Part shown: in pieces, positions 39,289-60,068 of the stretch
Layout of the letters: each line of letters opens with the position of its first letter
How positions within the stretch are numbered: the first letter of the stretch is position 1
Virus record (IMG/VR): IMGVR_UViG_3300035698_032311
Span: 1 to 64,000 of that record
Length of the DNA: 64,000 nucleotides
Source: a virus
Reading direction: 5' to 3' (one strand)
Program-made: the position numbers and the translations under genes
Notes under the pieces: model-generated
What the model was told of the DNA's origin: nothing
Databases searched by the model: none
What the model saw: only the letters and a program-made list of their open reading frames with translations

Positions 39289-39897
39289 TCATATGTTTTT
39301 GAGATTAATAGTTTTAAAATGAGAGCATTGATAATCTGTCGGACAAAAAATTTTAAAGCCCACTTCTTTAGCTTTTTTTGAAAAACTTAAATCTAAACCC
39401 ATTGTTTCAATACCATTTTCATCAAATATTCTTTCAAAGGGTGCTTTTATTTTTTCAAGCACATTTCTTTTTATTAAAATACAACCTGTCCCGCCTGCGT
39501 CAATTTCAATAAGGTCATTTTCAGGCAAATCTTTAATTGGTTGCCAGTAACCATTAGCATCAGTTTTATAAACATTCCAGCCAACTTTGTATTGATAAAT
39601 CAGTGTTGGACAAATAATAACATCTTTATTTAATAAAATGAGCTCAAATGGATTTTGAGAAGGCACAACATCTTCATCAATCATAATCAACCACTCATTA
39701 TTTGATTTTAAGAATTTTTGAACAATATGATTGCGTGCATGAGCACATGGCTTTTCTTCAGTAAAATTGACAAAAATTTTATATGGCGAGTTTTTGCACC
39801 ATTTAATCAGTTTAAGTGCAAGTTCTTTTCTGATACTACCTTGAGTCAAGATAGCTAAATATACCTCTGAATCATTTTTTAACTTGTTTTCTGCCAT
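39289..39897 (-). CDS. GT-A fold glycosyltransferase (DxD)
   Basis: IMIDEDVVP DxD motif; paralog of 40005 and 58675 genes (…GTGCILIK…). Confidence 0.45.
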   Translation of the reverse strand: MAENKLKNDSEVYLAILTQGSIRKELALKLIKWCKNSPYKIFVNFTEEKPCAHARNHIVQKFLKSNNEWLIMIDEDVVPSQNPFELILLNKDVIICPTLIYQYKVGWNVYKTDANGYWQPIKDLPENDLIEIDAGGTGCILIKRNVLEKIKAPFERIFDENGIETMGLDLSFSKKAKEVGFKIFCPTDYQCSHFKTINLKNI

Positions 39898-40004
39898 TTC
39901 TGTGTGATTTTTATAAGTAGTTAATGAATAACACCTCTTTGATATAAAAAACTCCCAGAGCATCATCTAGATATGTCTGAGAGAGCTCTAATAATAACTT
40001 TAGA

Positions 40005-40700
40005 TTAATTTCTTTTATAAAGTTCCTTGTCTCGAGCTCTTTTGTTTAAAAACCCCCTTAAGCCGTTATTCCATTTCTTTTTAGCTTCAGGTGATAAGTG
40101 GGCAATATAATAATTTTCATCAATAACTTGGTTGCTTCCAATATGTCCGATTTTAAGAGACGAATCTACCCAAATTTTATAGCCCAATTTAAGAGCATTT
40201 GAACACCAAGTAAGGTCACTACTGAACAAATGGTCTTTATAATAATAATAAGGCGGCTTCATTTTCTTAAACACGTCCATCTTAATCAGCATACAGGACA
40301 TTCCTGTCGCGTCTACACTCACGAGTCCGTGGTAATAAGCCATTGTATTATAAGATTTTTCTATATCGTTCCATTTGAAAATACAGGGATAATGCGGTTT
40401 TATTCTTCGAAAAGCAAGTGCATTTACAATATTTAATTTATGTTCTAATAATCTTTTTAATGCATCGGGAGGAAAAGTCATGTCAACATCAATAAAAAAC
40501 AGATAGTCACTATGACTTTTCAATGCTTCCGATACTATATAATTTCGAGCAAATGGTAATTGTACACCCAGCGTTGAAATAAACCGGACATCAGTATTTG
40601 GGGGATATTCAAGGGCAATCAGACACTGCACAAATTTTGTATGAAGAAATTCTGATGCACTCGGCATTCCAACTGCTATTTTTAATCTTTTTGACTCCAT
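40005..40700 (-). CDS. GT-A fold glycosyltransferase (DxD), paralog
   Basis: FFIDVDMTFPP…ATGMSCMLIK…IGHIG. Confidence 0.45.
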   Translation of the reverse strand: MESKRLKIAVGMPSASEFLHTKFVQCLIALEYPPNTDVRFISTLGVQLPFARNYIVSEALKSHSDYLFFIDVDMTFPPDALKRLLEHKLNIVNALAFRRIKPHYPCIFKWNDIEKSYNTMAYYHGLVSVDATGMSCMLIKMDVFKKMKPPYYYYKDHLFSSDLTWCSNALKLGYKIWVDSSLKIGHIGSNQVIDENYYIAHLSPEAKKKWNNGLRGFLNKRARDKELYKRN

Positions 40701-40962
40701 AGTCTTAAGACATACTGCCTCTCTACCTGAAGTTCTCGAACTTTCGGAGAGGCCTTGGTTCACGAACTTCAGTATAGCATGTCAAGGATTCATGTTTATT
40801 TTGGTTATCGATATCAACAACCAAATTTAAAGCTAGCTTGATCCGCAGGTCACTGTCCAAGTAATTGTTAGGGTCATTCTGTTACTTTTATAACCTCTTT
40901 GTTGAGGCGAGTAAATATTTCTATTTACTTCTCTATGTCGCCATAGAGTTCAGACTTTCTCA

Positions 40963-41682
40963 TTATCCTATATTTAAAGAATCAACACAGTTAGAAGAAC
41001 TTTCTTTAATCTCATTTTCTTTTAATCGTATTACCTGATATCCATTCTTCTTTAATAGCTGAGTATATTTTTTATCTCTCTCAATCACATTAGGTAAAGA
41101 ATGCCAGTATTTTCCATCACAATATATTGCAAGATTATATTTGGGTACAAAGAAATCAACTATAGTAGAAAATATTAAATATTGTTTTTTATAAACTATC
41201 TTTCGTGTCTTAAGTTCAGCTTCAATTATCCTCTCGATAAGTGTGTCTTTTTTTATCCAACTTTTAGATAAAATTTTCATCATTCGTTCCTTTTCAACAG
41301 GATTACTCCATCTTTTCTGTTGACCTGCTTTCATTCTTTCTACAACTTCTTCTGATATTTTTCTGCCTATTAATTTTTTCTTAATTTTATTAATCGTTTC
41401 TTGAGAATAAATTCCTTTTTTATTCTTATTCCAGGCTACTATTATTCCTTTAAGACCTTTATTCCATGGTATCATTCTTTTTTTAAACTCGCTTTTTGGA
41501 TGATTTCCTTTCTTAAATCCGTAAGTATTACCTTTCATAAATTTTCTCATCTTCTCTTTTCGTTCAGTTGACCAAGGACTATTATAATTTCTTCTCATTT
41601 TTTTGATTGATTCTTTTGTATGATGTGAATCTTTCTTCATATATAGGATACTCTCCGTCAAGTCGTTACACCTTCCGCACAA
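40963..41682 (-). CDS. homing-endonuclease-like protein: NUMOD3 repeats plus C-terminal Vsr/DUF559-like nuclease
   Basis: GNHPKSEFKKRMIPWNKG and IYSQETINKIKKKLIGRKISEE are NUMOD3-like; C-terminal …YCDGKYWHS…RD…LLKKNGYQVIRL is a Vsr-fold PD-(D/E)xK domain. Confidence 0.5.
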   Translation of the reverse strand: MCGRCNDLTESILYMKKDSHHTKESIKKMRRNYNSPWSTERKEKMRKFMKGNTYGFKKGNHPKSEFKKRMIPWNKGLKGIIVAWNKNKKGIYSQETINKIKKKLIGRKISEEVVERMKAGQQKRWSNPVEKERMMKILSKSWIKKDTLIERIIEAELKTRKIVYKKQYLIFSTIVDFFVPKYNLAIYCDGKYWHSLPNVIERDKKYTQLLKKNGYQVIRLKENEIKESSSNCVDSLNIG

Positions 41683-42218
41683 GCGGCTTGGCTCGGGATT
41701 GTCTTGAATATTTTATCAAGGTTTTCCCCGAATTTGAAGAGTTTTTCATTTAGGATTACTCCTAAAGCGGACAAATTTTTATCCGCAGCCCCTTTGTTAA
41801 TTACTGGGAATGTTGCTCCACAGAGCATTGTTCCTGCACCAGAACTATTGAAAACACCCGCTTCAGTTATTGCTCCTGTTCCATCTGCAGCTGCCCATGT
41901 AGCTTTATAAACCACATCATTATCATCTGCACCAGAAAGTTGATCTGGGTAATTAGCAGATAATGCATTTCTATCTAGTTGACTACCCAATGTAGTCGCA
42001 CCAGTAGTAAAAGCAGTAGCAGAAGTTCCAATCGCCATCCATCCCATTCCAGCTTCATCAGGAGAAACATCTAATTGATCTGCAACATGAGCATCTCCTG
42101 TATCCATAAATGTATTTTCCTGTATGTGAAAATCTTTCAATCGACCCTCTTCGTCGTATATTTCCAGCTTAATTTTTCCCTTCAATGGAACTAATTCATG
42201 AACTTTTTTCTTTTTCAT
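41658..42218 (-). CDS. higher-GC Ala/Gly/Thr-rich protein, possible decoration/structural protein
   Basis: 186 aa; composition differs from neighbours. Confidence 0.25.
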   Translation of the reverse strand: MKKKKVHELVPLKGKIKLEIYDEEGRLKDFHIQENTFMDTGDAHVADQLDVSPDEAGMGWMAIGTSATAFTTGATTLGSQLDRNALSANYPDQLSGADDNDVVYKATWAAADGTGAITEAGVFNSSGAGTMLCGATFPVINKGAADKNLSALGVILNEKLFKFGENLDKIFKTIPSQAACAEGVTT

Positions 42219-42236
42219 AATAAGAAAGAAGATTGG

Positions 42237-42452: not shown

Positions 42453-42486
42453 TTGTTTTTATTTACTAACATATTCGACCTTTAAT

Positions 42487-42828: not shown

Positions 42829-43485
42829 TTAAACATCATTTTGTAAACTTTTCTTAATATATTTAATTTTAAATGCTTGGTATATTTTTAATAATACAAA
42901 AGGTACTATTTTTTTATTTAAATGAGTTTTGTCTTTTGAACTTTTGATAGGAAAATTAGAATATTTAGATGACACACTACCATTTTTATTTGAAACCATT
43001 GAAAATATATTGATAAACGGTATATTATTTTCTTTACAAAACATATCAAGTTTCTCATTAAATTCTTTTACTATTTGAACTCGAACAACCAATGGAGCAA
43101 AATATGGCAAATTCCAGAGATCTGGAGTATCCTGAGAGGGAGGAATACTATAAATGCAAATCTTAAAACCCATCTTTTCTATTTCTTTTATCATCTTTCC
43201 GTAATTCGCAATAGTATTGTCAATCAATATGCTAATAGGTATCTTATCTCTTTTATGAATGTTATAAATATGAAGCCCACAATCTATTTCACCAAAACTT
43301 AATAAGACTATATCATTTATTTTATCTATATTTTCTTCTTTTAATATTTTTAACACTCTCAATCTTGAACTGTGTTCACTTTCACCAAGTTTAAAAGCTG
43401 TCGCTGCCCAATTCTTATGAACAATAAAGTTATCATTTTCTTTAAAAGAAAAAATATGACTATCTCCGATTGCATGAATTTTCAT
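42829..43485 (-). CDS. SGNH/GDSL hydrolase (esterase/O-acetyl-modifying)
   Basis: N-terminal IHAIGDSH (GDSx block I). Confidence 0.55.
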   Translation of the reverse strand: MKIHAIGDSHIFSFKENDNFIVHKNWAATAFKLGESEHSSRLRVLKILKEENIDKINDIVLLSFGEIDCGLHIYNIHKRDKIPISILIDNTIANYGKMIKEIEKMGFKICIYSIPPSQDTPDLWNLPYFAPLVVRVQIVKEFNEKLDMFCKENNIPFINIFSMVSNKNGSVSSKYSNFPIKSSKDKTHLNKKIVPFVLLKIYQAFKIKYIKKSLQNDV

Positions 43486-44189
43486 TGTTTTTGAAAAACT
43501 AAAAGAGGATTTATATCTGAAAGTCTAATCATTTTTAATAATTTTAACTTCGCTAACCGTGCATGCAAATGAAGAAAAGCAAGATAAAATGTTTCTTTTT
43601 GATGTGTTTCTTGAAAAATTTCAAAATTTGGCAAAACTAAAAATCTCCATTTTATTACAGCTTGGCTTCTTTTAAAACTTGAAGTAGTCAATCTTATAAT
43701 TATTTTTTCTTGTGCTTTAAAACTTTTAATAATTACTTTTGTAAGACCATGAAGAATAACATCATCAGTGTCCCAATAATCAACAATAAACAATCCATCT
43801 TTTCGTAAATGTCGTGAAACTATTTTAAAAAATTGTGGAATATCACGTTTTTTTAGATATCCAAGTACATCAAAAAGACAAACACATGCGTCAAATTTTT
43901 GGGAACTCTTAAAGTTTAAAATATCATCACATTTAAATTTTAAATTGCTATTTTTTATTTTCTTTTGTGCAATTTTAATCATGTCAGGAGATTTATCAAT
44001 TCCAAACACAGTATATCCTTGTTGAGCTAAAATTGACGAATGTCGCCCTGTTCCACAACCAATATCAAGAACTTTTTTTATATTATGTTCTTTAAAAATT
44101 GTATCTAAAAAATCAACTTCAGCTTTATAGTCTTTTCTTTGGTATGTAATATCATAGATATTAGCATACTTTTCTTTAAAAACACTCAT
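43482..44189 (-). CDS. class I SAM-dependent methyltransferase
   Basis: VLDIGCGTGRHS motif I. Confidence 0.7.
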   Translation of the reverse strand: MSVFKEKYANIYDITYQRKDYKAEVDFLDTIFKEHNIKKVLDIGCGTGRHSSILAQQGYTVFGIDKSPDMIKIAQKKIKNSNLKFKCDDILNFKSSQKFDACVCLFDVLGYLKKRDIPQFFKIVSRHLRKDGLFIVDYWDTDDVILHGLTKVIIKSFKAQEKIIIRLTTSSFKRSQAVIKWRFLVLPNFEIFQETHQKETFYLAFLHLHARLAKLKLLKMIRLSDINPLLVFQKQ

Positions 44190-45262
44190 AATGTTTCTTT
44201 TATTACTTTAATAATTTCATCTTGTTCCTTTTCTGTTAAATCAGGAAATGTTGGCAAATATATTCCTTCATTCATTAATCGTTCAGAAACTGGAAAATTA
44301 CCGTCTTGTTTCAAATATGGCTGTAAATGCATCGGAATAAACCCCCTGCGAGTTTCAATTCCATTTTCTTTTAATGCTTTTTCAATCTCATTCCTTTTTG
44401 GTGTTTTAATAAAGTAATACCAGCTAACGTTTTTAGCAAACTTTTTTTCTACTGGAATTTCAACTAATCCTTCTAAATATTTATCGTAGTATTTAGCAAT
44501 TTTATTTCTTTTTTCATGCAATTCATCCCATCTTTCAAGTTGTCCAAGTCCAATTGCTGCATTCAACGAAGACAATCTTAAATTCCACCCAATTTTTTCG
44601 TGCCAGAAATGACCTACTTTGGGAAAATAATAAGCTCGAATCCCCCTTAATTCTGATGCTAAAGCATCATCATTCGTTGTAATTGCTCCACCTTCACCAC
44701 ATGTGATAATTTTGTTAGCATAAAACGAAAAACAATTACAAATACCAAAAGAACCGACTGTTTTCCCACCATACTCAGCACCATGAGCTTCAGCTGCATC
44801 TTCAACTACTTTTATATTTTTTCCTTTAATTGCTTCAAATATTTTGCTCATATTTACTGGCTGACCGTAAATATGTACAGGTATTATCACTTTAGTTCTT
44901 TCAGTGATTTTTTCTTTTATTAAATCAGGGTTAATATTACAAGTATCCCATTCTGCATCTACAAAAATAGGTTTAGCCCCACATTCAATAACTGCATTTG
45001 CAGTTGCGACCATAGTAAAATCAGGAACAATAACTTCATTATCACTTCTAATATTCAATGCCCATAAAGCTAAAAATAAAGCAGAACTTCCACTATTTAC
45101 TGCAATACAGTGTTTTACACCAATTCTCTCAGCGAATTTTTCTTCAAAAAGTTTCGTAAACCCTGCTATTGAAGAAATTTTACATTCATCAAGAGCTTTA
45201 TTGACCCATTTTTTCTCAACTTCTGTAATACTTGGACGAGATACGGGTATTTTATATTTCAT
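44186..45262 (-). CDS. DegT/DnrJ/EryC1/StrS-family sugar aminotransferase (PLP)
   Basis: …AVNSGSSALFLAL…GDEVIVPDFTMVATANAVIECGAKPIFVD… full-length match to the family. Confidence 0.8.
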   Translation of the reverse strand: MKYKIPVSRPSITEVEKKWVNKALDECKISSIAGFTKLFEEKFAERIGVKHCIAVNSGSSALFLALWALNIRSDNEVIVPDFTMVATANAVIECGAKPIFVDAEWDTCNINPDLIKEKITERTKVIIPVHIYGQPVNMSKIFEAIKGKNIKVVEDAAEAHGAEYGGKTVGSFGICNCFSFYANKIITCGEGGAITTNDDALASELRGIRAYYFPKVGHFWHEKIGWNLRLSSLNAAIGLGQLERWDELHEKRNKIAKYYDKYLEGLVEIPVEKKFAKNVSWYYFIKTPKRNEIEKALKENGIETRRGFIPMHLQPYLKQDGNFPVSERLMNEGIYLPTFPDLTEKEQDEIIKVIKETL

Positions 45263-45288: not shown

Positions 45289-46062
45289 TCATTCGACGTA
45301 AAATTCTAATTTTAGAATATTTTTAAGCATCGGATATCGCCACTGAGAAACTGCTCTTGGACCTATTCCAAGAAGAAAGTCCCAAAATGCTCCCATGTCT
45401 AATAGAAAAGATTTCTTTAATTTATTATGAAGATTACTTATAATAATATTAGAAGTAATTCCTGCAGTAAAACAATAAACTGCTGGTTTTCCATATCTTA
45501 AAATTTCATTTTCAACTCTATCATTTTCAAGATATGCCCCAAGTGTTGGAATTTCTATTAGTTTAAACTCTTTAAATAGACCTTTCTCTTTTAAAACTTT
45601 TAAATAACGACCACCTATTAATACTAATTCTTTTTTTCTTAAAGTTTCTATAAACTCTCTTGTTAAGGGCGGATATCTTATATCTCCTAAAGAAGTCCAT
45701 CTTAAAAGTTCATAAAATAATCTAGCATCATGTCGTTTCTGAATTCCAATCTTTTCTATCAATTTTTTTGCCTGTTTAATTAAGTTAGGGTAATCCTTAC
45801 CCCCCACTCCTTCTATTATTGTAGATAAATAAAGACCCGGAGATTTACAGTTATATAATGTTTCTATTAATTCTTTTCTACAATTTGGATAATAAATCTC
45901 TCTGTTAGAAATTGATGTTTTATCAAATATGAAACTAAATTCTCCGTCTCCATAACTTAACCAAGAAAAGTACTCATTATTTTTTAACTTATTGACAAAA
46001 AAATAAAATTTTGTTTTAAAGTCTTCAAATTTTTCATCATTTAGTTCTTTAGGCATATCCAA
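45289..46062 (-). CDS. GT-D (DUF1792)-like glycosyltransferase candidate
   Basis: N-terminal SYGDGEFSFIF (GDGE = DxE metal motif); paralog of next gene. Confidence 0.35.
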   Translation of the reverse strand: MDMPKELNDEKFEDFKTKFYFFVNKLKNNEYFSWLSYGDGEFSFIFDKTSISNREIYYPNCRKELIETLYNCKSPGLYLSTIIEGVGGKDYPNLIKQAKKLIEKIGIQKRHDARLFYELLRWTSLGDIRYPPLTREFIETLRKKELVLIGGRYLKVLKEKGLFKEFKLIEIPTLGAYLENDRVENEILRYGKPAVYCFTAGITSNIIISNLHNKLKKSFLLDMGAFWDFLLGIGPRAVSQWRYPMLKNILKLEFYVE

Positions 46063-50316: not shown

Positions 50317-50317
50317 A

Positions 50318-50638: not shown

Positions 50639-50682
50639 TTTATAATAAATAAGTTTTTAATTGCAAGTATTATTAAAAACAT

Positions 50683-51672: not shown

Positions 51673-51673
51673 A

Positions 51674-52324: not shown

Positions 52325-53306
52325 GAATTTTATAAGAAGTCCTCGGCTCAAAAGCATATACTTTTTTTGCAAAGGGCTTACATAATTCAAAAAATCCATC
52401 AGGCGAAAGTCTAAAAGCGTAGAGACATTGTATCTCAAATACAATATCAAATTTTTCTGAAGATTCAAAATCAAATATATTATCAACTCTAAAATCAGCA
52501 TTTGGAAATCTTTCTTTTGCAAGTTCTATCATCTCTTTACACCAATCTATTCCCACATAATTAGGTGTAATTTCTTTAATAATAGAAAACCATTTTCCAT
52601 GACCACAACCTATCTCTAAAACGCTATCACTTGGTTTGACTATTTCTTTTAATACTTTAATAAAATTTTTTTCTAAGTTATTAAAAATTAAGGGACCTTT
52701 ATACCAATCGATAGCTTCACTAACTCGTTTAGGCCAATACTCTTTTTCATGAGGATATAATTGTCGAATTTCTTCATTTATTAAAGCAAACTCATTTTTA
52801 AAATTCCAAGAAGAAAAAGAGTTCGGTTTATTAATATGACTTGTTTTTACTTGCCCCTGCTTAAAAGTTTTACTCTTTAGAGGAATAATAGTATTACCAA
52901 CAGCAAAATAAGAAAACTTTAAATCTTCTAAAACTTTTTGAGTATGTTCATTGTAATGATTTCCGGGTGCTTTGAATCCATATTTTTTTGGAAGAAATTT
53001 TTTTAAAATTTGAATTGATTTTGAAAACATTTCTTTTTGTTCTTCGTAACTTCTTTTGCACTCAACTGGTCTATTATAAATTTCACCAGTATGAGTATAC
53101 CCATGAATGGCAATCTCAACCCATTCCTTATTTTTTTCAAACCATTTACAAAACTCGCTGTCCTCATTGAGTGGTTTTATAAAATTCCAAAAGGGTACGG
53201 TGAATAAAGTTATTTTCATTGCGGGCATCCTTTTTTTTAATTTATCTATTCGAGAAAGTTCCTTCGAAGAAACCATTCCAATATCATCCATTGTTAAATA
53301 TATCAT
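52317..53306 (-). CDS. bifunctional polysaccharide deacetylase (CE4/NodB-like) / SAM-methyltransferase
   Basis: LTMDDIG (TFDD-like) and HGYTH (HxxH) motifs N-terminally; VLEIGCGHGKW motif I C-terminally. Confidence 0.5.
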   Translation of the reverse strand: MIYLTMDDIGMVSSKELSRIDKLKKRMPAMKITLFTVPFWNFIKPLNEDSEFCKWFEKNKEWVEIAIHGYTHTGEIYNRPVECKRSYEEQKEMFSKSIQILKKFLPKKYGFKAPGNHYNEHTQKVLEDLKFSYFAVGNTIIPLKSKTFKQGQVKTSHINKPNSFSSWNFKNEFALINEEIRQLYPHEKEYWPKRVSEAIDWYKGPLIFNNLEKNFIKVLKEIVKPSDSVLEIGCGHGKWFSIIKEITPNYVGIDWCKEMIELAKERFPNADFRVDNIFDFESSEKFDIVFEIQCLYAFRLSPDGFFELCKPFAKKVYAFEPRTSYKIHE

Positions 53307-54172
53307 AAAACTTTTCTTAATCGATGTAACATTGCCTTAGCCATCGCACTAGCAGTATATTTAGATATCGCCAAAGCATATGCACCTTCTACATCTAACT
53401 TTATTTTTTTATTATATAACTTTTTTAATTTAACTTTGAAATCCTCCAAATCGTCAGTCTTGAAATAAAGAGCATATTCACCCCAACATTCTTTATGTGG
53501 TTCAATATCTGACAGTAATAACGGTTTTTTAAAATAAGCTGCTTCAATAGAACTAAGAGCAGCATTCGCGTCTTCAGATGTTGCAACAACTAATAAGCGA
53601 CAATCTCTTAATACTTCAATATACTTTTTTCTGCTAAATTTGTATGGGTGACATGAAATAAATGGAATATCTAAGTCACGACAAGCGTCTTCAAAAAAAT
53701 CAAATCTTTTATATCTTTTGTCTCTTCTTGATGCTTGAACAACATAGCCAAGATCTTTTGTTTCGCCTATGCATTCTTCAACGACAGAGCATGTTTCAAT
53801 AACATGATGTTTTAAATTTAACTTTTTTTGCATTAACTTAACCATATATTTTGAAGGCGTCCAAATATCAATACTTTCTTTCATCAAGTCAGTAAATGCA
53901 GGCCAATATCCAGTAGTTTTATCTACAAAAGAAAGCCAGTCCCAGTTATATGTAATGATTGGAACTTTTGGATATAATAAATGAAATTTTTGAAGTCTGG
54001 AAGTTTGAGATATGCTCATACAAATAATCACATCACAATCTTCAGAACATTCGTTAAGAAGAACTTTTGCCCTTTTCGATAATTCGTTATACACCCACCA
54101 CAACCAATTTTTATTATCTGTATATACTCCAATTGATGGGATTAAAAATGAAATTTTAAATTTTTTCTTCAT
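53303..54172 (-). CDS. GT-B (GT4-like) glycosyltransferase, short
   Basis: C-terminal …SIEAAYFKKPLLLSDIEPHKE… resembles the GT1/GT4 sugar-donor domain. Confidence 0.4.
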   Translation of the reverse strand: MKKKFKISFLIPSIGVYTDNKNWLWWVYNELSKRAKVLLNECSEDCDVIICMSISQTSRLQKFHLLYPKVPIITYNWDWLSFVDKTTGYWPAFTDLMKESIDIWTPSKYMVKLMQKKLNLKHHVIETCSVVEECIGETKDLGYVVQASRRDKRYKRFDFFEDACRDLDIPFISCHPYKFSRKKYIEVLRDCRLLVVATSEDANAALSSIEAAYFKKPLLLSDIEPHKECWGEYALYFKTDDLEDFKVKLKKLYNKKIKLDVEGAYALAISKYTASAMAKAMLHRLRKVL

Positions 54173-54173: not shown

Positions 54174-56456
54174 TTAATAATTTAAAAATAAATGTAAATC
54201 GACATTTTTATTTTGAACTACTCTTTTAAAAAGTTCAGCATATTTTGGGCCTAGCTCTTCCCAACTTAATTCATTTGCAATTTTATCTGAAAGTTTTGAA
54301 AAATTTGAAATTTTTGAAGGGCTCATTTTAGCAACTTCATCAATTTTTTTAGCAATTATTTCTGGCGAATGAATAGCAGCATAAAAAGTCCTACGACCAG
54401 CCGGCTCATCTCTCTCAAACGTAAGAGTAGTTGGACGGGTTTTCTTTTCTACTCCGATTGGTTTAATTAACATTTCTTTGGGCAGCCAACTATTAAAAGG
54501 TGGAAAGTCTGTCGCCATTATTAACATTCCTGTTGATAATGCTTCTTGAATTGGTAAACAAAGACCATTATATCTAAGAGGAAAAAGAAAAACATCTCCT
54601 TTCTTAAAAAGTTCCCAATAGTTGTCGATGTCTTCGACATTTAAAATTACACGTTTATCATCAATTTTAATATCAGTTTCATCTTGTACTTTTATTAAGA
54701 AAGTAACTTTTTTATTTTTAACTAATGGAATAGCTTTTAAAAGAGATGTTGTGCCATTTCTATTAAATGCTGTTTTACGACCCGCAGTATGAAGAAAAAT
54801 TTTAGCTTTTTTTCTACACTTAAATGGTAAAACTTTTCTTTCAACTGGCATGGGCAAAAAGATTTTTTTGTTGGATATACTTTGATAATCAACTAAAGAA
54901 GGACAGATAAAAAGATCTGCGAACTTATAATATGGAGAATCTTCAGGCATACACTCATACATCGGTATCCAAATTATTTTCTTTCTTTTTGCTTTTGCCT
55001 TTTCAAGAACTCGTAAAATAAATGGATGCTGAAGAACTACAAGAACATCGATTTGGTCTAAGAAATTGTCTAATATTTGATCAGTCACATCTTCTTCCGT
55101 TTCAAAAATTTTACAGCCAGGAAAACGTTCAGGGAAAATTCTTCTGGAAGTATTTTTGATAATTAACGCTTTCATATTGAAATGATTAAAAAATTCTTGA
55201 GCCAATGTTCCTAATCCTGTGTTATCTGCACGAATAATACTTCCTATTTTAATTTCAGGAATATATTTTCCCTTTAAATCTATATTAATTTGTTGTTCAG
55301 AGTTAAATTTTTCTGGAATAAAAACATTTTTTGTATTTTTTTCTTTTTTTTGAATGAAAAAAGAACTTCTTTCGTCTTCATTTTGTTTAATTCTTTCACC
55401 ATTAACTAGTTTTTCAAAAATATTTAAATACTTAGATTTAAGTTGTTTCCAACTCCATTTTTCAGCTAACATATTATTATAATTAGAATATTTTTTGATT
55501 GATTTATCTGCAATTTCGTCTATTTTTCCAGCTATTGTTCTTGGCGATATCGAAGAATGTAGAGTATTTCTTCTAATAAAAATATTCTCTTGTTTTATTG
55601 GAGTAAGTAATAATTCTTTGGGTAAAAAACTGTTTTCTGGAAATTTATTAATACTAATAACAGGCATTCCTAATGACATCGCTTCTTGAACTGGAAGAGA
55701 AAGACTTCCATATTTTTGAGGGTGTAATAAAATATCTTCTCCGTTGTAAAGATCTTCGTATTTAGAAAAATCTTTTTCTTGTATTTTAAGAGTTACTTTG
55801 TTATATCTAAACTCTTCTCCTGATATATATTTTTTTCCTGCAATTTCTTGTATTTTTCCAGATACACTTTTATTTATCCAAAATAATGCAGGTTGAAAAT
55901 TCATTACAAGTTTAATGGGGTTCTTAATTAATGGAAGAGATTCTAAAATTTCCATAGTTCCATTTCTACCTCGCACCCCTCCCTTTCCAATATTATGAAG
56001 AAAAATATTCGCTTTTTCTCTTAATTTAAATGGAAGAATTTTTCGATTTATTGGAATGGGTAGAAAAATCTTGGGTTCATTCATTTCTTGATAATCTAAC
56101 AATGTAGGACAAATACATAAATCAGGTAAAGAGGGCAGTTCAAGCGGCATCCATTCAAAATTAGGGATAAGAACTGTTTTCACTCCCATTTCTCTTGCAA
56201 TATTAAAAATTTCCCAGTTATACGGCGTCTCAAATGTCAATAAAAGATCTAAATCTTTAAGAAAGTCTCTAATGAAAGAAGCGTTTAAACTACCAACCCA
56301 ATAAGCATCAGGAAATTTCCACCTATACTCAACTCTATATGGTGATATTGCAACTACTTTTGAAAATGGCAAATGACGGTAGAATTCTAATGAAAGAGTT
56401 CCAAGTCCACACGAATCACTACGAGCAATAAGTCCATAACGCATTTTTTTTGCCAT
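54174..56456 (-). CDS. tandem double GT-B glycosyltransferase
   Basis: Two repeats each with …PVQEAMSLGMPVISI / …PIQEALSTGMLIMAT (E-x7-E-like GT4 motif). Confidence 0.55.
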   Translation of the reverse strand: MAKKMRYGLIARSDSCGLGTLSLEFYRHLPFSKVVAISPYRVEYRWKFPDAYWVGSLNASFIRDFLKDLDLLLTFETPYNWEIFNIAREMGVKTVLIPNFEWMPLELPSLPDLCICPTLLDYQEMNEPKIFLPIPINRKILPFKLREKANIFLHNIGKGGVRGRNGTMEILESLPLIKNPIKLVMNFQPALFWINKSVSGKIQEIAGKKYISGEEFRYNKVTLKIQEKDFSKYEDLYNGEDILLHPQKYGSLSLPVQEAMSLGMPVISINKFPENSFLPKELLLTPIKQENIFIRRNTLHSSISPRTIAGKIDEIADKSIKKYSNYNNMLAEKWSWKQLKSKYLNIFEKLVNGERIKQNEDERSSFFIQKKEKNTKNVFIPEKFNSEQQINIDLKGKYIPEIKIGSIIRADNTGLGTLAQEFFNHFNMKALIIKNTSRRIFPERFPGCKIFETEEDVTDQILDNFLDQIDVLVVLQHPFILRVLEKAKAKRKKIIWIPMYECMPEDSPYYKFADLFICPSLVDYQSISNKKIFLPMPVERKVLPFKCRKKAKIFLHTAGRKTAFNRNGTTSLLKAIPLVKNKKVTFLIKVQDETDIKIDDKRVILNVEDIDNYWELFKKGDVFLFPLRYNGLCLPIQEALSTGMLIMATDFPPFNSWLPKEMLIKPIGVEKKTRPTTLTFERDEPAGRRTFYAAIHSPEIIAKKIDEVAKMSPSKISNFSKLSDKIANELSWEELGPKYAELFKRVVQNKNVDLHLFLNY

Positions 56457-56468
56457 ATTTTTAATCTG

Positions 56469-57431
56469 TTATTTTTCGTTAATTGTTTCTAATAATTGTG
56501 TACAACGACTTTTAAATGAATGTTGCTTTTTGCAATACTCAAATCCATCTTTTTTAATTTTTTCTCTTTCTTTATTATGTGTTAAATAATAGTTAATTTT
56601 CTTTTTTAAATCAACAAAATTTCTATATTCAAATGGTACAAAATGTTTATAGTATTCAAACTCTTTTTCAAGACCATCAACACTTGGATGAAGCAAAAAT
56701 CCACCTCTTCCTAATACATCATAAATCCGAACTGACCAGTACTGTGGACTTGGTGAAGAATCACCAACTATTATTTTAACAGAAGCATATAAATCATTTA
56801 AATCTGCACCTCGAATTTCATTCGCCCCCATTCGTCCCCACCACTTGAAACTGTTTTTGAATGTACTTTGAAGTTTCCTTATCATTTCTGCTCGCCATGG
56901 GTGTAATATTGATGAAGAAGTACCAACAAATGTAATATCTGATTTTAAATACTTTCTATATCGCCCGATATAAGCATCTTCTTCATAAATACCTTGTCTC
57001 AATACATAATGATTAATTCTTGACCAGAAAAAATAATCTTGATGGCCACCATCTGTTGAAAAAACAAAATCACATTGGTATCGGGGATTAAAAAATAAGT
57101 CTATTGCCCTATCTGTTCCACAATAAAGATCAAATAACCAAAAAACTGTTTTTATTTTGCCCAAAATCTTAGAGAAATCTCCGTTTATTCTTCTATTAAC
57201 AGTTAATAAAAAATTATATTTTTTAGTGTGTATTTCACGAAGAACATCTTCAAGAGATGTTTCTTTTGCTTCAAATCTTTTAACTTCCCAACCTAACTTC
57301 TCAAATGTTCTTGCAATATACTCTTCATCCCATAGATTATAAAATGATCCAATCAATATCATTTTTGGCTTAGAAAAAATATCTAGCAACTTGGATTTTG
57401 ATTTTCTTTCCATAGTCTTGTTGACTCTCAA
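56469..57431 (-). CDS. CgeB-like glycosyltransferase (DUF3880-type)
   Basis: C-terminal …YRNFVDLKKKINYYLTHNKEREKIKKDGFEYCKKQHSF… resembles CgeB family; TTG start. Confidence 0.4.
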   Translation of the reverse strand: MRVNKTMERKSKSKLLDIFSKPKMILIGSFYNLWDEEYIARTFEKLGWEVKRFEAKETSLEDVLREIHTKKYNFLLTVNRRINGDFSKILGKIKTVFWLFDLYCGTDRAIDLFFNPRYQCDFVFSTDGGHQDYFFWSRINHYVLRQGIYEEDAYIGRYRKYLKSDITFVGTSSSILHPWRAEMIRKLQSTFKNSFKWWGRMGANEIRGADLNDLYASVKIIVGDSSPSPQYWSVRIYDVLGRGGFLLHPSVDGLEKEFEYYKHFVPFEYRNFVDLKKKINYYLTHNKEREKIKKDGFEYCKKQHSFKSRCTQLLETINEK

Positions 57432-57442
57432 GTTATGTTTCT

Positions 57443-57625: not shown

Positions 57626-57629
57626 ATTT

Positions 57630-58382: not shown

Positions 58383-58390
58383 AATTAAAA

Positions 58391-58672
58391 TCAGAGTATA
58401 TCAACATACGCTTTCGCTCCCGTTCCAGTAACTGCTGCATAAACTCCATTTCCAAAAGATTTTGAGCCTAAATAACTAGTGCATGAAGTATTCGCAGTTG
58501 CTTTTATAGTAACTAAAATTGTTCCACTTCCCTCTGTGTTATCATAAACTATTACTGTAGAATTACTTGCACTTGCAGTCAGAACTACTGAAGAAATAGC
58601 ACCAATACCAGTAAAAAGTAAACTGTTTGTAGTAACTTCGTAACCTTTAGACATTTTTTTAATCTTTTTCAA
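58391..58672 (-). CDS. small β-rich protein (hypothetical)
   Basis: 93-aa ORF, Thr/Ser/Gly-rich. Confidence 0.3.
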   Translation of the reverse strand: MKKIKKMSKGYEVTTNSLLFTGIGAISSVVLTASASNSTVIVYDNTEGSGTILVTIKATANTSCTSYLGSKSFGNGVYAAVTGTGAKAYVDIL

Positions 58673-58674
58673 CC

Positions 58675-59331
58675 TTACTGCGAAGCTGAAAAAGGTTTAT
58701 TTATATTAGTTCTTTTTTCGACCATTTTTAAGAAATCCCCTTTACCCCTTACAGGAGCGTCACCAATATGTCCAATATTAATATTTGGTTCACAATATAT
58801 TTTAAAACCTGCTTTTTTCGCTTTTTTACAAAACATAAAGTCTACAGACCAATGAGTTTTATTTTTGTCGTAGAGTGTCTCAAAAAAAGGATATTTAACT
58901 TTTTTAAAAACTTCAGTTTTAATTAATAAAATTCCAGTGCCAATTGCATCAACTTCAGTAAACCTATTTACAAGCACAGGATAATATTTATCACCTCTTT
59001 TTGCATAAACACAAGGTTCATACATCTCTCTTCGTTTAAACGCTTGAACACCCACAATTTCTTTATTGTGGGCTAATAGATTATCCAGTGTTTCTGGAGG
59101 AAAAATCATATCATCATCTATAAAAAGAAGATGAGTATAATCAGGTTCCTCAAGAGTTTTTTCTACAATTATATTTCTTGCTGAATCTATCATTACTCTA
59201 GGTACCCATATAATCCTAGTATTATTTGGTGTTTTAAGTGCTGCAATTGAACTTGCAAATCTGTAATCAACAAGTCCAGAACCTGCTGGAATCCCAATTG
59301 ATATTTTATTTATTTGACTTTTTAGATTCAT
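58675..59331 (-). CDS. GT-A fold glycosyltransferase (DxD), third paralog
   Basis: LLFIDDDMIFPP … GTGILLIK … IGHIG. Confidence 0.45.
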   Translation of the reverse strand: MNLKSQINKISIGIPAGSGLVDYRFASSIAALKTPNNTRIIWVPRVMIDSARNIIVEKTLEEPDYTHLLFIDDDMIFPPETLDNLLAHNKEIVGVQAFKRREMYEPCVYAKRGDKYYPVLVNRFTEVDAIGTGILLIKTEVFKKVKYPFFETLYDKNKTHWSVDFMFCKKAKKAGFKIYCEPNINIGHIGDAPVRGKGDFLKMVEKRTNINKPFSASQ

Positions 59332-60068
59332 AATATATTAAAAGCTAAAATTCTCTTTTTTAATTTATTAATATTTAATAATTCATTTCCCCAAATAATT
59401 AAAGTGTCAAAACCAAATTTCTTAAAATATTCAATCCTTTTTCTTTCTTCTTTCTTTTCGTGCCAATGCTCTCCAAATAACTCGATAAGTTTCTTTTTTC
59501 CATTAATATTTAGAAAGTCTGGACATTTTCCTCCAAGAATAAATTGACCGTCTCCAACAAAAAAATATTCTTCAGGTATTGTTACTTGAAGAATAGTATT
59601 AAGAAATTTCTCAGAATAATTAGGACAAACATGACTAGCTTCTAAAATTTTTTGTACAGTTCTTTTTTTATACCCGGGCTCTCTCCATTTTTTCTTCATC
59701 GAACAACTTATTTTATTAGCATAAATAAGGTTTTTCCAAAGGATTCTAGAACTTTTAGCTCTTTTTAATCTAATCTTAGTTGTATTACATACTTGTTTAG
59801 TTTTTAATTGAATTAATTTTTTATGTTTTATTGATAATTTTTTCCCAGCCCAATAACCAATATGGCCCATTAAAGATTGGCTTCTTTTTTTTCTAGTTTT
59901 ACTATTTTGTATAATGCCCGTATGAGCAATAATCTGTTTTTTTCTATATCCAATGTCTTTCCATTTTTCTTTCATCGCTAGACTTAATTTCGGATATTTT
60001 ATTTTTTGGTCTTTTAGACTCATTTTACCTTGAAGCCTCTCCAACTCATTATTTTTTAGTTTATACAA
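59328..60068 (-). CDS. homing-endonuclease-like protein with Vsr-fold nuclease (paralog of 57630)
   Basis: W-x-(D/E)-(I/P)-G-Y-(R/K)-K-K repeats; C-terminal GGKCPDF…IELFGEHWHEK…KR.EYFKKFGFDTLIIWGNEL. Confidence 0.5.
   Translation of the reverse strand: MYKLKNNELERLQGKMSLKDQKIKYPKLSLAMKEKWKDIGYRKKQIIAHTGIIQNSKTRKKRSQSLMGHIGYWAGKKLSIKHKKLIQLKTKQVCNTTKIRLKRAKSSRILWKNLIYANKISCSMKKKWREPGYKKRTVQKILEASHVCPNYSEKFLNTILQVTIPEEYFFVGDGQFILGGKCPDFLNINGKKKLIELFGEHWHEKKEERKRIEYFKKFGFDTLIIWGNELLNINKLKKRILAFNIL

What the first reader, a model, noticed from the sequence alone, without database searches (positions are those of the whole stretch)
39289..60068. ~21-kb sugar-modification island inside the virion structural module, including APS-kinase-sulfotransferase fusion (sulfated glycan synthesis)
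Between the MCP (60133-61104) and the fibre genes lies a dense minus-strand block. It holds three GT-A paralogs, a tandem double GT-B, GT4-like and CgeB-like glycosyltransferases, and two DUF1792/GT-D-like paralogs (GDGE motif). It also holds a DegT sugar aminotransferase, an NAD epimerase/dehydratase, two GNATs, three methyltransferases, and a CE4 deacetylase-MTase fusion. There is an MTase-HxGH nucleotidyltransferase fusion, an SGNH esterase and a HAD phosphatase. Most notably, a canonical CysC APS kinase (IWLTGLSSSGKSTIA…) is fused to a sulfotransferase-like P-loop domain (LVIILGRGRCGTS), and a second stand-alone sulfotransferase paralog follows (IVIGKARSGTS). Together this is the toolkit for an aminated, N-acetylated, methylated and sulfated oligosaccharide. 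The location is the one where mycobacteriophages encode virion-glycosylating GTs. PAPS generation plus sulfotransfer encoded by a phage, and placed in the structural module, is to my knowledge not a described system. The HAD phosphatase next to the PAPS enzymes could remove the inhibitory PAP by-product.
Basis: partly seen in the sequence, partly recalled or inferred. Interest (0 to 1): 0.85.

Follow-up and report, generated by a model that had tools for sequence, protein, structure and literature searches.

The report
Phage glycan island with sulfation module
An uncultured tailed phage carries, between its capsid gene and its head-fibre genes, about 17 kb of sugar-building enzymes that include their own predicted machinery for making activated sulfate and attaching it, plus a small enzyme that may be an unrecognised kind of ATP sulfurylase.

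Summary
Window 39289-60068 is one minus-strand block between the Mu-gpT-type capsid gene and the LamG/BNR fibre-like genes. Twenty of its 26 genes are glycan-related. The APS kinase domain passes NCBI's equivalog cut-off.

The interval is not all sugar genes. It also holds three homing-endonuclease-like genes, a fibre-like protein, a zinc-finger protein and a 93-aa Ser/Thr-rich protein.

New here: the "HxGH nucleotidyltransferase" fused to a methyltransferase belongs to a ~110-aa family that lies within 300 bp of an APS-kinase(-like) gene in 128 of 160 sampled loci. It is fused to one in 51 of 149 cluster representatives. I propose it is a minimal ATP sulfurylase, which would make the cassette a complete sulfate → APS → PAPS → sulfo-ester route. 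This rests on association only; by sequence and fold it is nearest to archaeal NMN adenylyltransferase.

The sulfation module is accessory. It is present in the window and one close relative, which also carries a TauE/TSUP permease, and absent from another relative. Virion glycosylation is inferred, not shown. Phage sulfotransferase and cysC genes are already annotated elsewhere; the combined arrangement found no description in the literature searched.

The parts
58675..59331 (-). GT-A-fold glycosyltransferase next to the MCP gene (GTA3). It is the conserved core of the island.
   Evidence: Pfam Anp1 29.7 bits (> gathering score 28.8). phrog_1574 6.5e-24. A homologue directly follows the MCP in 16 of 21 clade relatives L099-L119 (48-66% id).
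58391..58672 (-). 93-aa protein with 27% Ser+Thr and no family match. Candidate glycan acceptor or decoration protein.
   Evidence: No Pfam or PHROG hit. Ser+Thr content. A tblastn match was found in 10 of the 16 relatives that carry the MCP-proximal GT-A, downstream of it in each of the seven of these that were mapped. The role is inferred.
56469..57431 (-). CgeB-like glycosyltransferase (Glyco_trans_1_2).
   Evidence: Pfam 1.6e-18. phrog_28745 glycosyltransferase 3.8e-36.
54174..56456 (-). Tandem double GT-B glycosyltransferase (760 aa).
   Evidence: Two Glyco_trans_1_4/GT1 stretches, 4.5e-15. phrog_2170 with 2 stretches.
53303..54172 (-). Probable GT-B-like glycosyltransferase (weak call).
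   Evidence: Pfam GT1 1.2e-3, below gathering score. Conserved in L009, L100 and L010 (52-74% id).
52317..53306 (-). DUF2334/CE4-like deacetylase domain fused to a class-I methyltransferase.
   Evidence: Pfam DUF2334 5.8e-13 and Methyltransf_31 6e-11.
51674..52324 (-). Stand-alone PAPS-type sulfotransferase (ST2, 216 aa).
   Evidence: Sulfotransfer_3 31.0 bits (> gathering score 27). Motifs GKARSGTS, GFFE and YRD…S are conserved in A3. Orthologues P0243 (71% id) in L009 and P0246 (52% id) in L010.
50683..51672 (-). Class-I methyltransferase (aa 1-~196) fused to a mini HxGH nucleotidyltransferase (aa ~205-329; nt 50686-51072). The NTase is the proposed minimal ATP sulfurylase.
50318..50638 (-). 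Small cap-less HAD-IIIA-type phosphatase. Proposed pyrophosphatase or PAP 3'-phosphatase.
   Evidence: DFDGV motif. phrog_1238 5e-19 and PNK-phosphatase phrog_415 1e-8. BT0820-family 9e-7. It travels with the sulfation module (L009 79.6% id). A HAD-miniNTase fusion, P0329, exists. The role is inferred.
49180..50316 (-). APS kinase (aa 1-~165) fused to a sulfotransferase domain (aa ~166-378).
   Evidence: PF01583 1.3e-46. TIGR00455 173.4 bits (> cut-off 138.7). PDB APS kinase 5cb6 1.7e-37. C-domain: A3 invariant and near-invariant residues, profile versus TPST1 1.4e-8, Foldseek TPST2 4.5e-6. An identical protein appears in two independent assemblies.
48785..49177 (-). GNAT N-acetyltransferase 2.
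   Evidence: Acetyltransf_1 4.4e-11. 58% identical to 46788-47144.
48071..48754 (-). FkbM-family methyltransferase.
   Evidence: Methyltransf_21 2e-15.
47149..48081 (-). NAD-dependent sugar-nucleotide 4,6-dehydratase/epimerase (LegB/RmlB-like).
   Evidence: GDP_Man_Dehyd 1.1e-54. TIGR04180 LegB 1.5e-62, below the equivalog cut-off.
46788..47144 (-). GNAT N-acetyltransferase 1.
   Evidence: Acetyltransf_1 7.5e-12.
45289..46783 (-). Two tandem GT-D-like (DUF1792-like) paralogues (46049-46783 and 45289-46062).
   Evidence: PF22882 GT-D-like 34.1 bits (> gathering score 27) for one and PF08759 1e-3 for both. 36% identical to each other, 7e-30. GDGE motif in both.
44186..45262 (-). DegT/LegC/PseC-like PLP sugar aminotransferase.
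   Evidence: PF01041 2.3e-108. LegC 1.3e-82 and PseC 3e-77, below the equivalog cut-offs.
43482..44189 (-). Class-I SAM methyltransferase.
   Evidence: Methyltransf_25 4.6e-22.
42829..43485 (-). SGNH/GDSL-like esterase or O-acyltransferase (weak call).
   Evidence: Lipase_GDSL_2 1.3e-5, below gathering score. GDSH and DKTH blocks are visible in the sequence.
41658..42218 (-). Fibre-like structural protein embedded in the island.
   Evidence: phrog_4176 tail fiber 1.8e-8 and phrog_5417 1.4e-13. It lies about 300 bp downstream of p93, with no other matched gene between them, in relative L100.
39289..40763 (-). Two further GT-A-fold glycosyltransferases (40005-40763 and 39289-39966).
   Evidence: Anp1/GT2 weak hits. 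Paralogous to 58675-59331 at 2.4e-34 and 2.7e-16. Conserved in L100 (61-63% id).
40963..41682 (-). DUF559/Vsr-like endonuclease. It is an interspersed mobile-element-like gene, not part of the pathway. Two genes that are paralogues of each other, also with basic repeat-rich N-terminal halves, lie at 57630-58382 and 59328-60068.
   Evidence: DUF559 1.3e-9. 59328-60068 DUF559 4.6e-3. 57630 versus 59328 are 33% identical, 3.9e-26. Absent from L100 and L009.

Best explanation
The block is a late-module, entirely cytoplasmic glycan factory.

Proposed pathway:
1. Sugar-nucleotide tailoring enzymes (4,6-dehydratase, DegT aminotransferase, two GNATs) make an N-acetylated amino-deoxy sugar from a host nucleotide sugar.
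2. Up to nine glycosyltransferase domains (three GT-A, three GT-B, one CgeB-like, two GT-D-like) build an oligosaccharide.
3. Four methyltransferase domains, a CE4-like deacetylase and an SGNH enzyme decorate it.
4. A four-gene accessory module sulfates it.

Proposed steps within the sulfation module:
- The mini HxGH nucleotidyltransferase (C-terminal third of 50683-51672) adenylylates sulfate to APS.
- The small HAD phosphatase pulls the pathway forward, either by removing pyrophosphate or by removing the PAP by-product.
- The APS kinase makes PAPS, which is used at once by the sulfotransferase fused to it and by the second, paralogous sulfotransferase.

The most likely acceptor is a glycan on virion proteins: the 93-aa Ser/Thr-rich protein, the capsid or decoration protein, or the fibre proteins.

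Shown: domain identities, paralogy, synteny, the accessory nature of the module, and the nucleotidyltransferase-APS kinase linkage.
Inferred: every catalytic activity, the sulfurylase assignment, the HAD role and the acceptor.
For: Domains.

No membrane protein, flippase, polymerase or priming phosphoglycosyl transferase is present in any island gene (maximum 19-residue hydropathy below the TM range). Assembly must therefore occur on a soluble acceptor.

Position: the island lies between the MCP and the adaptor, on the same strand, with mostly overlapping or nearly abutting genes.

A GT-A directly follows the MCP in 16 of 21 clade relatives, and a p93 homologue was found in 10 of them.

Sulfotransferase domains:
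- Invariant 5'-PSB and 3'-PB Arg, with a near-invariant 3'-PB Ser.
- Profile hits to TPST, CurM and SULT structures.
- Sulfotransferase fold.
- Two ST subfamilies are co-conserved in the distant relative L010.
- The APSK-ST fusion arose twice, with different ST subfamilies: the window's fusion and P0002.

Mini-nucleotidyltransferase linkage to APS kinase:
- Adjacent to an APS kinase in 7 of 7 looked-up contexts.
- Within 300 bp in 63 of 80 IMG/VR loci and in 65 of 80 genome loci.
- Fused to an APSK(-like) domain in 51 of 149 cluster representatives, in both orders; 38 of these have a full-length APSK.
- It occupies the place that Sat holds in Sat-APSK fusions.

Other support:
- The close relative L009 has a TauE/TSUP six-TM anion permease inside the same module.
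- A HAD-miniNTase fusion, P0329, exists.
- SAR11 genomes carry aprBA and an "APS kinase" but mostly lack sat (PMC3448164). The mini-NTase sits next to that kinase.
Against: - No experiment of any kind exists; the phage is uncultured.
- Many partner kinases elsewhere are short APSK-like proteins without the C-terminal lid. In SAR11 the pair lies among unrelated core genes, so the pair could make a different 3'-phospho-adenylyl compound in those lineages.
- The nearest solved relatives of the sulfotransferases are protein-tyrosine sulfotransferases, so the acceptor need not be a sugar.
- The relative L100 keeps most sugar genes at a different genomic position, upstream of the protease. Placement inside the structural module is therefore not obligatory.
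- Promoter and terminator scans are uninformative.
Confidence: 0.5

Rival explanations
1. The sulfation module is real, but APS comes from the host's own ATP sulfurylase. On this reading the mini-nucleotidyltransferase is a truncated NMN (or other) adenylyltransferase serving NAD salvage or another adenylylation. Its linkage to APS-kinase-like genes would then reflect a different two-step pathway, such as an NR-kinase/NMNAT-like or PPAT/DPCK-like route.
For: - Best sequence and fold matches are NMNAT, PPAT and NadR.
- NCBIfam NMNAT models hit, though below cut-off.
- In SAR11 the pair lies among C1 and CoA-related core genes.
- Many partner kinases are truncated APSK-like proteins.
- Cultured phages such as Xylella phage Salvo carry the fusion without any sulfotransferase nearby.
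Against: - The match to NMNAT covers only the first ~75-83 residues. The whole domain is ~110 aa against ~170-180 aa for NMNAT.
- The family has its own invariant RD, YGRGVG(Y/W) and ISATKIR motifs.
- 38 of the 149 cluster representatives are fusions to full-length APS kinases. An NMNAT has no obvious business with an enzyme specific for APS.
- In the window, L001, L005, L008, L009 and L013 the gene sits in cassettes with sulfotransferases.
Confidence: 0.3
2. The sulfotransferases act on protein tyrosines (RaxST/TPST-like) or on a small molecule rather than on the glycan. Glycosylation and sulfation would then be two separate modifications.
For: The top structural and profile matches are tyrosylprotein sulfotransferases 1 and 2.
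Against: - Identity to TPST is only 13-17%, and the substrate-binding region (residues 33-53 of the model) is of low confidence.
- This ST family recurs next to glycosyltransferases, DegT and epimerases in L001, L005, L008, L009 and L010. It also occurs in a cellular polysaccharide cluster with a Wzx-like flippase, L011.
Confidence: 0.15
3. The island does not modify the virion. It would instead remodel a host cell component, or supply activated sulfate as an auxiliary metabolic function during infection, or hypermodify phage DNA with glycans.
For: - Phage glycosyltransferases are best known for DNA glucosylation and serotype conversion (PMC12619734).
- In relative L100 the main sugar block lies outside the MCP-adaptor interval.
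- The mini-NTase/APSK pair occurs in many phages without glycan genes.
Against: - No Wzx/Wzy/ABC exporter, lipid-carrier priming enzyme or any membrane protein is present.
- No hydroxymethylase or DNA-metabolism genes are in the block.
- A GT-A follows the MCP in 16 of 21 clade relatives, with a p93 homologue in 10 of them.
- GT-D enzymes are known from cytoplasmic protein O-glycosylation of serine-rich adhesins (my own knowledge of the DUF1792 literature, not tested here).
Confidence: 0.15

Closest known systems
Mycobacteriophage virion glycosylation (Che8, Corndog, Myrna; Freeman et al. 2023, as cited in PMC11256854 and PMC11600133)
   Same: Phage-encoded soluble glycosyltransferases plus an O-methyltransferase that glycosylate capsid and tail-tube proteins in the host cytoplasm.
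   Different: - Those systems have 2-4 genes and no sugar-nucleotide tailoring, acetylation or sulfation.
- In cluster F1 they lie near the 3' genome end, not between the MCP and the adaptor.
- Here there are ~20 genes, including a sulfate-activation module.
- Glycosylation of this virion is not demonstrated.
Bifunctional PAPS synthases (Sat-APS kinase fusions, e.g. Aquifex 2gks; metazoan PAPSS)
   Same: Two-step ATP-dependent sulfate activation. The APS kinase here is a canonical member. Mini-NTase-APSK fusions have the same N-to-C order as bacterial Sat-APSK.
   Different: - The proposed first enzyme is ~110 aa, lacks the Sat PUA-like and catalytic-domain signatures, and is nearer to NMNAT.
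- Here the kinase is fused to the consumer (a sulfotransferase) rather than to the producer.
Archaeal/NadM-type NMN adenylyltransferase (1f9a, 1ej2)
   Same: HIGH-type Rossmann nucleotidyltransferase fold; GRxQPxHxGH and ISxT-K-IR ATP-binding motifs.
   Different: - Only the first ~80 residues align.
- The region that binds the nicotinamide moiety in NMNAT (from memory of the M. thermautotrophicus structure papers) is replaced by an invariant YGRGVG(Y/W) loop.
- The domain is about 60 residues shorter.
- NCBIfam NMNAT models are far below cut-off (48.8 versus 127 bits).
Predicted sulfotransferases in viral genomes (OM43-phage MVGs and Synechococcus phage S-SRM01, PMC10580990; Megavirinae glycosylation clusters, PMC11625862; BFVD entries)
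   Same: Sulfotransfer_3/1-type genes carried by viruses, in giant viruses alongside glycan genes. None has been characterised.
   Different: - None is reported with its own APS kinase fused to it, with a candidate sulfurylase, or inside a tailed-phage structural module.
- ST2 has no PHROG family and only one dubious hit among 50,697 phage records.
Tyrosylprotein sulfotransferases and CurM-type sulfotransferases (3ap2, 5wri, 4gbm)
   Same: Fold, 5'-PSB and 3'-PB PAPS-binding motifs.
   Different: 13-17% identity, a much shorter protein (~215 aa), and an unknown acceptor.

Membership tests
APS kinase (CysC; PF01583 / TIGR00455) | Whole-domain score above the curated cut-offs. | tested here: met
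   PF01583 158.9 bits (gathering score 21.1). TIGR00455 173.4 bits (cut-off 138.7). PDB APS kinases 1e-37.
APS kinase (CysC; PF01583 / TIGR00455) | P-loop GxxGxGKS/T, the DGDxxR motif, the (F/Y)S…DRxxN APS-binding motif, and the C-terminal lid. | tested here: met
   GLSSSGKST, IDGDELR, LGYSREDREENMRR and the full lid region align to the APSK profile over aa 1-161.
PAPS-dependent sulfotransferases (Sulfotransfer_1/_3 clan) | 5'-phosphosulfate-binding loop (R/K-x-G-T-S/T) and 3'-phosphate-binding Arg…Ser. | tested here: met
   In A3, R13, G15, S17 and R125 are invariant and T16 and S132 nearly invariant, counted in the fusion's C-domain numbering. ST2 has GKARSGTS and YRD…S.
PAPS-dependent sulfotransferases (Sulfotransfer_1/_3 clan) | Pfam gathering score. 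| tested here: inconclusive
   ST2 scores 31.0 against a gathering score of 27 (met). The fusion's C-domain scores 26.0 against 27 (just under). The family profile hits TPST1 at 1.4e-8.
PAPS-dependent sulfotransferases (Sulfotransfer_1/_3 clan) | Sulfotransferase fold. | tested here: met
   AF2 pLDDT 82. Foldseek versus PDB: the top 22 hits are all sulfotransferases, with TPST2 at E=4.5e-6 and TM 0.60-0.68.
PAPS-dependent sulfotransferases (Sulfotransfer_1/_3 clan) | Catalytic base and sulfuryl-transfer activity; acceptor identity. | not testable with these tools
   An invariant Glu (GFFE/GYGE, E53) is a candidate base, but it lies in a low-confidence model segment.
ATP sulfurylase, Sat type (PF01747) | Sequence membership (QxRNPxHxxH and GRDHAG motifs, PUA-like N-domain). 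| tested here: not met
ATP sulfurylase (function, any family) | ATP + sulfate → APS + PPi activity. | not testable with these tools
   Only association evidence is available: adjacency or fusion with APS kinase and cassettes that include sulfotransferases and a TSUP permease.
NadM-type NMN adenylyltransferase | Full-length match above the curated cut-off, including the NMN-binding part. | tested here: not met
   PRK01153 48.8 bits (cut-off 127) and TIGR01527 38.8 bits (cut-off 181). Alignments stop at residue ~83 of ~122.
HIGH-signature (HxGH) nucleotidyltransferase superfamily | Rossmann-like fold with the HxGH motif and a C-terminal ISxT-type motif. | tested here: met
Phage virion glycosylation system (mycobacteriophage type) | Phage-encoded soluble glycosyltransferases. 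| tested here: met
Phage virion glycosylation system (mycobacteriophage type) | Glycans covalently attached to capsid or tail proteins. | not testable with these tools
   The phage is uncultured. Only synteny with structural genes is available.
Lipid-carrier-dependent surface polysaccharide loci (Wzx/Wzy or ABC type) | Priming phosphoglycosyl transferase, flippase or polymerase, or an ABC exporter (membrane proteins). | tested here: not met
   No island protein has a TM-range hydrophobic segment, and there are no matching Pfam families.
GT-D (DUF1792) glycosyltransferases | GT-D-fold family match and a DxE-type metal motif. | tested here: inconclusive
   46049-46783 scores 34.1 bits on PF22882 (> gathering score 27). 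45289-46062 gives only 1e-3 on PF08759. GDGE is present in both.

The most novel reading that the evidence does not exclude
The ~110-residue HxGH nucleotidyltransferase may be a third, previously unrecognised and minimal type of ATP sulfurylase, evolved from an NMNAT-like ancestor.

Together with an APS kinase it would form a compact PAPS synthase. That unit is spread through thousands of phage genomes. It is also present in SAR11 (Pelagibacteraceae), CPR bacteria and marine archaea.

In SAR11 it would fill the long-noted gap of having aprBA and an "APS kinase" but no sat. In this phage it would make virion-glycan sulfation independent of host sulfate activation.
Probability: 0.45. Interest if true: 0.88.

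Novelty: new variant of a known kind. Interest (0 to 1): 0.72.

Why it matters
If the island works as proposed, tailed phages can coat their particles with elaborate, negatively charged sulfated glycans built entirely from phage-encoded enzymes. That would bear on adsorption, on particle behaviour in mucus and sediment, on immune recognition and on defence evasion. It would also extend virion glycosylation well beyond the few simple mycobacteriophage cases.

The by-product may matter more. A very small enzyme family is tightly coupled to APS kinases in phages and in SAR11, the most abundant marine bacteria. If it is an ATP sulfurylase, it would revise viral "cysC" auxiliary-gene annotations and SAR11 sulfur metabolism. 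It would also give biotechnology a compact PAPS-generating and sulfating cassette.

Tried and rejected
1. A viral-contig scan with the whole APSK-ST fusion found no confirmed relative. The word-based patterns were too specific.
2. phmmer of ST2 alone against PDB found nothing. Only the family profile and the fold search worked.
3. Alignment A1 (fusion + kinases + sulfotransferases) misaligned the two P-loops and was discarded for structure prediction. A3, the C-domain only, was used instead.
4. The Sat-family hypothesis for the mini-nucleotidyltransferase was tested and rejected at the membership level.
5. The 150-aa CTP_transf_like gene in L010 is a different, TagD/RfaE-like cytidylyltransferase and not a family member.
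6. "Pseudomonas phage Y4", the only phage record with both an ST2 homologue and an APS kinase, is an UNVERIFIED, unannotated record and was not used as precedent.
7. Promoter and terminator scans of the island equal chance expectation.
8. The afdb50 fold library was unavailable.
9. The Freeman et al. 2023 paper itself is not held. Its content was taken from papers that cite it.
10. The host could not be assigned. The best cellular hits of the mini-NTase and ST are in CPR MAG contigs and SAR11. The lysin has a peptidoglycan-binding domain, which points to a bacterial host.

Full report
**What the window is**

The window is part of a large tailed phage. The minus strand carries, in order:
- an S78 protease-scaffold gene (61541-63913);
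- a 136-aa virion protein (phrog_1731, 2e-27);
- a Mu-gpT-type major capsid protein (60133-61104, 2.5e-61);
- the block in question;
- LamG- and BNR-containing large proteins;
- a head-tail adaptor, a tail tube, a tape measure, Dit, and a lysin with a peptidoglycan-binding domain.

An array of 22 tRNA genes lies at 1738-4265. GC content is about 30% throughout, and the island is not compositionally distinct.

**Check of the observation**

Almost every domain assignment is borne out by Pfam, NCBIfam or PHROGs.

Strong calls:
- DegT (2e-108).
- An NAD-dependent 4,6-dehydratase/epimerase (1e-54, LegB-like).
- Two GNATs, three free-standing or fused class-I methyltransferase domains, and one FkbM methyltransferase.
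- A DUF2334/CE4-like + methyltransferase fusion.
- A CgeB-like glycosyltransferase and a duplicated GT-B protein.
- The APS kinase.

Weaker calls:
- The three GT-A genes are mostly below gathering score but clearly paralogous, at 1e-11 to 1e-34.
- One of the two GT-D-like genes is weak.
- The SGNH and HAD proteins are weak by score but show their catalytic motifs.
- 53303-54172 is weak.

Paralogy of the GT-A, GT-D, GNAT, sulfotransferase and endonuclease genes was confirmed by all-against-all blastp.

The interval is not purely a sugar island. It also holds:
- three DUF559/Vsr-like endonuclease genes (40963-41682, 57630-58382, 59328-60068);
- a fibre-like protein (41658-42218);
- a small C2H2 zinc-finger protein;
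- a 93-aa protein with 27% Ser+Thr.

The second sulfotransferase begins at the ATG at 52324 (216 aa). This agrees with an independent gene call on another assembly.

**The sulfation enzymes**

The N-terminal 165 residues of 49180-50316 are a canonical APS kinase. The domain scores 173 bits against the TIGR00455 equivalog cut-off of 138.7 and 1.7e-37 to a solved APS kinase. The P-loop, DGDxxR, the FS…DR…N motif and the lid are all present.

The C-terminal domain is 1 bit below the Sulfotransfer_3 gathering score, so I tested it further.
- An alignment with 26 homologues (A3) shows the 5'-phosphosulfate loop (R13, G15, S17), a Gly-x-x-Glu motif (G50, E53), K100 and the 3'-phosphate Arg (R125) to be invariant. 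T16 and S132 are nearly invariant. All are kept in the phage protein.
- The family profile finds tyrosylprotein sulfotransferase 1 (1.4e-8), the CurM sulfotransferase and cytosolic SULTs.
- An AlphaFold model (pLDDT 82) matches only sulfotransferases at the top of the PDB list: TPST2 at E=4.5e-6, probability 1.0, TM 0.60-0.68.

The stand-alone paralogue (30% identical, 8e-18) is above the gathering score. The identical fusion protein occurs on two independent assemblies, so it is not a frameshift artefact.

Among the 120 best of 2,200 homologues, only one other protein, P0002, has the APSK + sulfotransferase architecture. Its sulfotransferase half belongs to the other subfamily, the ST2 type. 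The fusion therefore arose twice, which argues for functional coupling.

**The overlooked first step**

This ~125-residue domain belongs to a well-defined family with four motifs: GRYQPxHxGH, RD…NP(F/Y), IPDIxxVxYGRGVG(Y/W) and ISATKIR. An exhaustive HMMER search finds 1,317 50%-identity clusters at E≤1e-10.

Its association with APS kinase is striking.
- All seven genomic contexts I looked up have an APS-kinase gene next to it or one to three genes away.
- In 80 IMG/VR loci, 72 have an APS-kinase-like gene and 63 have it within 300 bp on the same strand.
- In 80 loci from species-representative genomes, the figures are 73 and 65.
- Of the 149 best cluster representatives, 51 are direct fusions to an APS-kinase(-like) domain, in both orders. 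Thirty-eight of these carry a full-length kinase.
- In the mini-NTase-APSK fusions the small domain occupies the N-terminal place that Sat occupies in bacterial Sat-APSK proteins.
- One representative, P0329, is a fusion of the small domain to a HAD phosphatase homologous to the window's 106-aa HAD protein (33% id, 1.5e-9).
- In the close relative L009 the module also contains a six-TM TauE/SafE (TSUP) anion permease.

ATP sulfurylases of the Sat type belong to the same HIGH-nucleotidyltransferase superfamily. The pair "adenylyltransferase + 3'-kinase" is the logic of both PAPS and CoA synthesis; this is established biochemistry, from my own knowledge.

I therefore propose that this domain adenylylates sulfate. 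That would make the four-gene module (ST2, MTase-miniNTase, HAD, APSK-ST; 49180-52324) a self-contained sulfate → APS → PAPS → sulfo-ester pathway. The HAD protein would remove either pyrophosphate or PAP.

**Limits of the sulfurylase proposal**

By sequence and fold the domain is not a Sat-family member.
- PF01747 reaches only 16.6 bits.
- No Sat appears in a profile search of the PDB.

It is not a bona fide NMNAT either.
- Only the first ~80 residues align.
- NCBIfam NMNAT models are far below their cut-offs.
- The domain is some 60 residues shorter.

Many partner kinases in other lineages are short APSK-like proteins that lack the lid. These include Xylella phage Salvo gp32 (annotated "kinase", = phrog_10255) and the SAR11 gene. 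In SAR11 the pair sits among unrelated core genes. A different 3'-phospho-adenylyl product in those lineages cannot be excluded.

On the other side, Grote et al. 2012 note that SAR11 strains have aprBA and an APS kinase, but that only one strain has sat (PMC3448164). SAR11 hypervariable regions also carry sulfotransferases (bioRxiv 10.64898/2026.04.03.716430). A sulfurylase next to the "APS kinase" would close that gap.

I found no paper describing this family or its linkage.

**What the island as a whole does**

No island protein has a membrane-spanning segment. There is no flippase, polymerase, exporter or priming transferase, so the glycan must be assembled on a soluble acceptor in the cytoplasm.

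Twenty-one relatives with 42-71% identical capsid proteins were recovered from IMG/VR.
- In 16 of them a homologue of the GT-A 58675-59331 directly follows the capsid gene. Ten of these also have a detectable homologue of the 93-aa Ser/Thr-rich protein, downstream of the GT-A wherever it was mapped.
- The rest of the island is variable.

Three relatives are informative.
- L009 (capsid 80% identical) has the same order, including ST2, MTase-miniNTase, HAD and a stand-alone APS kinase.
- L100 (71%) keeps GT-A, p93, the fibre-like protein, two GT-A genes, LamG, the 1148-aa protein and the adaptor between capsid and tail genes. Its dehydratase, DegT, GNAT, MTase and GT-B block lies upstream of the protease. 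L100 lacks the sulfotransferases, the APS kinase, the HAD protein and the nucleotidyltransferase domain; its methyltransferase ends at residue ~196.
- The more distant L010 has both sulfotransferase subfamilies between capsid and adaptor, but no kinase.

The sulfation module is thus an accessory add-on to a variable glycan island whose core is tied to the capsid gene.

This pattern favours modification of virion proteins. So do the same-strand packing with late genes and the presence of GT-D-like and CgeB-like enzymes, families known from cytoplasmic protein or spore-coat glycosylation (my own knowledge). It does not prove it.

The likely sugar chemistry is a host nucleotide sugar converted by the 4,6-dehydratase, then the DegT aminotransferase, then GNAT acetylation. 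This would give a bacillosamine- or viosamine-like sugar. The inference comes from LegB/LegC/PseC-like scores that lie below the equivalog cut-offs.

**Comparison with what is known**

- Virion glycosylation by phage-encoded glycosyltransferases and an O-methyltransferase is established for mycobacteriophages.
- Sulfotransferase genes have been noted in OM43-phage genomes and in Synechococcus phage S-SRM01, "function unclear" (PMC10580990). They have also been noted in Megavirinae glycosylation clusters (PMC11625862) and appear in BFVD annotations.
- APS-kinase-like genes are common in viral contigs.
- Among 50,697 deposited phage records, only five have a detectable homologue of this kinase. 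None has the fusion, and only one unverified record matches ST2.
- My literature searches found no description of the combination: a ~17-kb glycan island in the structural module, two sulfotransferases, an APS kinase fused to one of them, and a candidate sulfurylase.

**Verdict**

- I classify the finding as a new variant of a known kind: phage glycan and virion-glycosylation loci, and sulfate-activation pathways.
- The embedded lead, a minimal ATP sulfurylase shared with SAR11, would be categorically new at the enzyme level if biochemistry bears it out.

Noticed in passing
window 1738-4265 (+ strand): A compact array of 22 tRNA genes covering 15 amino acids, unusual for a siphovirus-like genome.
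   Followed up: no
window 40963-41682, 57630-58382, 59328-60068: Three homing-endonuclease-like genes (two with a DUF559/Vsr-like hit, the third a paralogue of one of them) with repeat-rich basic N-terminal halves interrupt the island. The relatives L100 and L009 lack them, and L100 has the large sugar block at a different genomic position. This suggests rearrangement associated with these elements.
   Followed up: partly
L009 10239-10979: The close relative carries a six-TM TauE/SafE (TSUP) permease between the MTase-miniNTase gene and the HAD gene. This would be a phage-encoded candidate sulfate or sulfite transporter.
   Followed up: partly
L185-L258 (Pelagibacteraceae genomes), e.g. L221 5553-6333: SAR11 genomes conserve a short APS-kinase-like gene overlapping a 124-aa mini-nucleotidyltransferase gene, among GcvT-like, MTHFR-like, enoyl-CoA hydratase and CoA-binding genes. 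SAR11 is reported to lack sat in most strains.
   Followed up: partly
L097 5578-6324 (Xylella phage Salvo gp32); L098 4590-5321 (Stenotrophomonas phage DLP_6): Cultured phages encode a short-kinase + mini-nucleotidyltransferase fusion annotated only as "kinase" or "hypothetical" (= phrog_10255). In Salvo it lies in an early region about 3.5 kb downstream of a gene annotated as cysteine dioxygenase.
   Followed up: partly
window 42487-42792; L001 7216-7476; L107 ~19047-19187: A small C2H2 zinc-finger protein recurs beside the fibre-like gene in related phages. Its function is unknown.
   Followed up: no
window 22164-23171 and 23332-24366: Two calcineurin-like metallophosphoesterase genes sit inside the tail module, between Dit and the distal tail genes.
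   Followed up: no
window 6870-7661, 11778-12452, 13142-13981 (+ strand): The plus-strand arm carries an SPFH/Band-7 protein, a ThiF/E1-like protein and a weak UDP-glucose/GDP-mannose dehydrogenase-like protein. The last could feed the glycan pathway.
   Followed up: no
L013 (658-kb contig, JGI 3300043534) 5415-7725: A very large contig with giant LamG proteins carries a full-length APS kinase, then the mini-nucleotidyltransferase, then DUF2061, with a sulfotransferase on the opposite strand. DUF2061 is also found fused to APS kinases (P0010, P0032, P0037…).
   Followed up: no
L102 6578-7957: One relative has the 136-aa head decoration gene duplicated in tandem upstream of the capsid gene.
   Followed up: no
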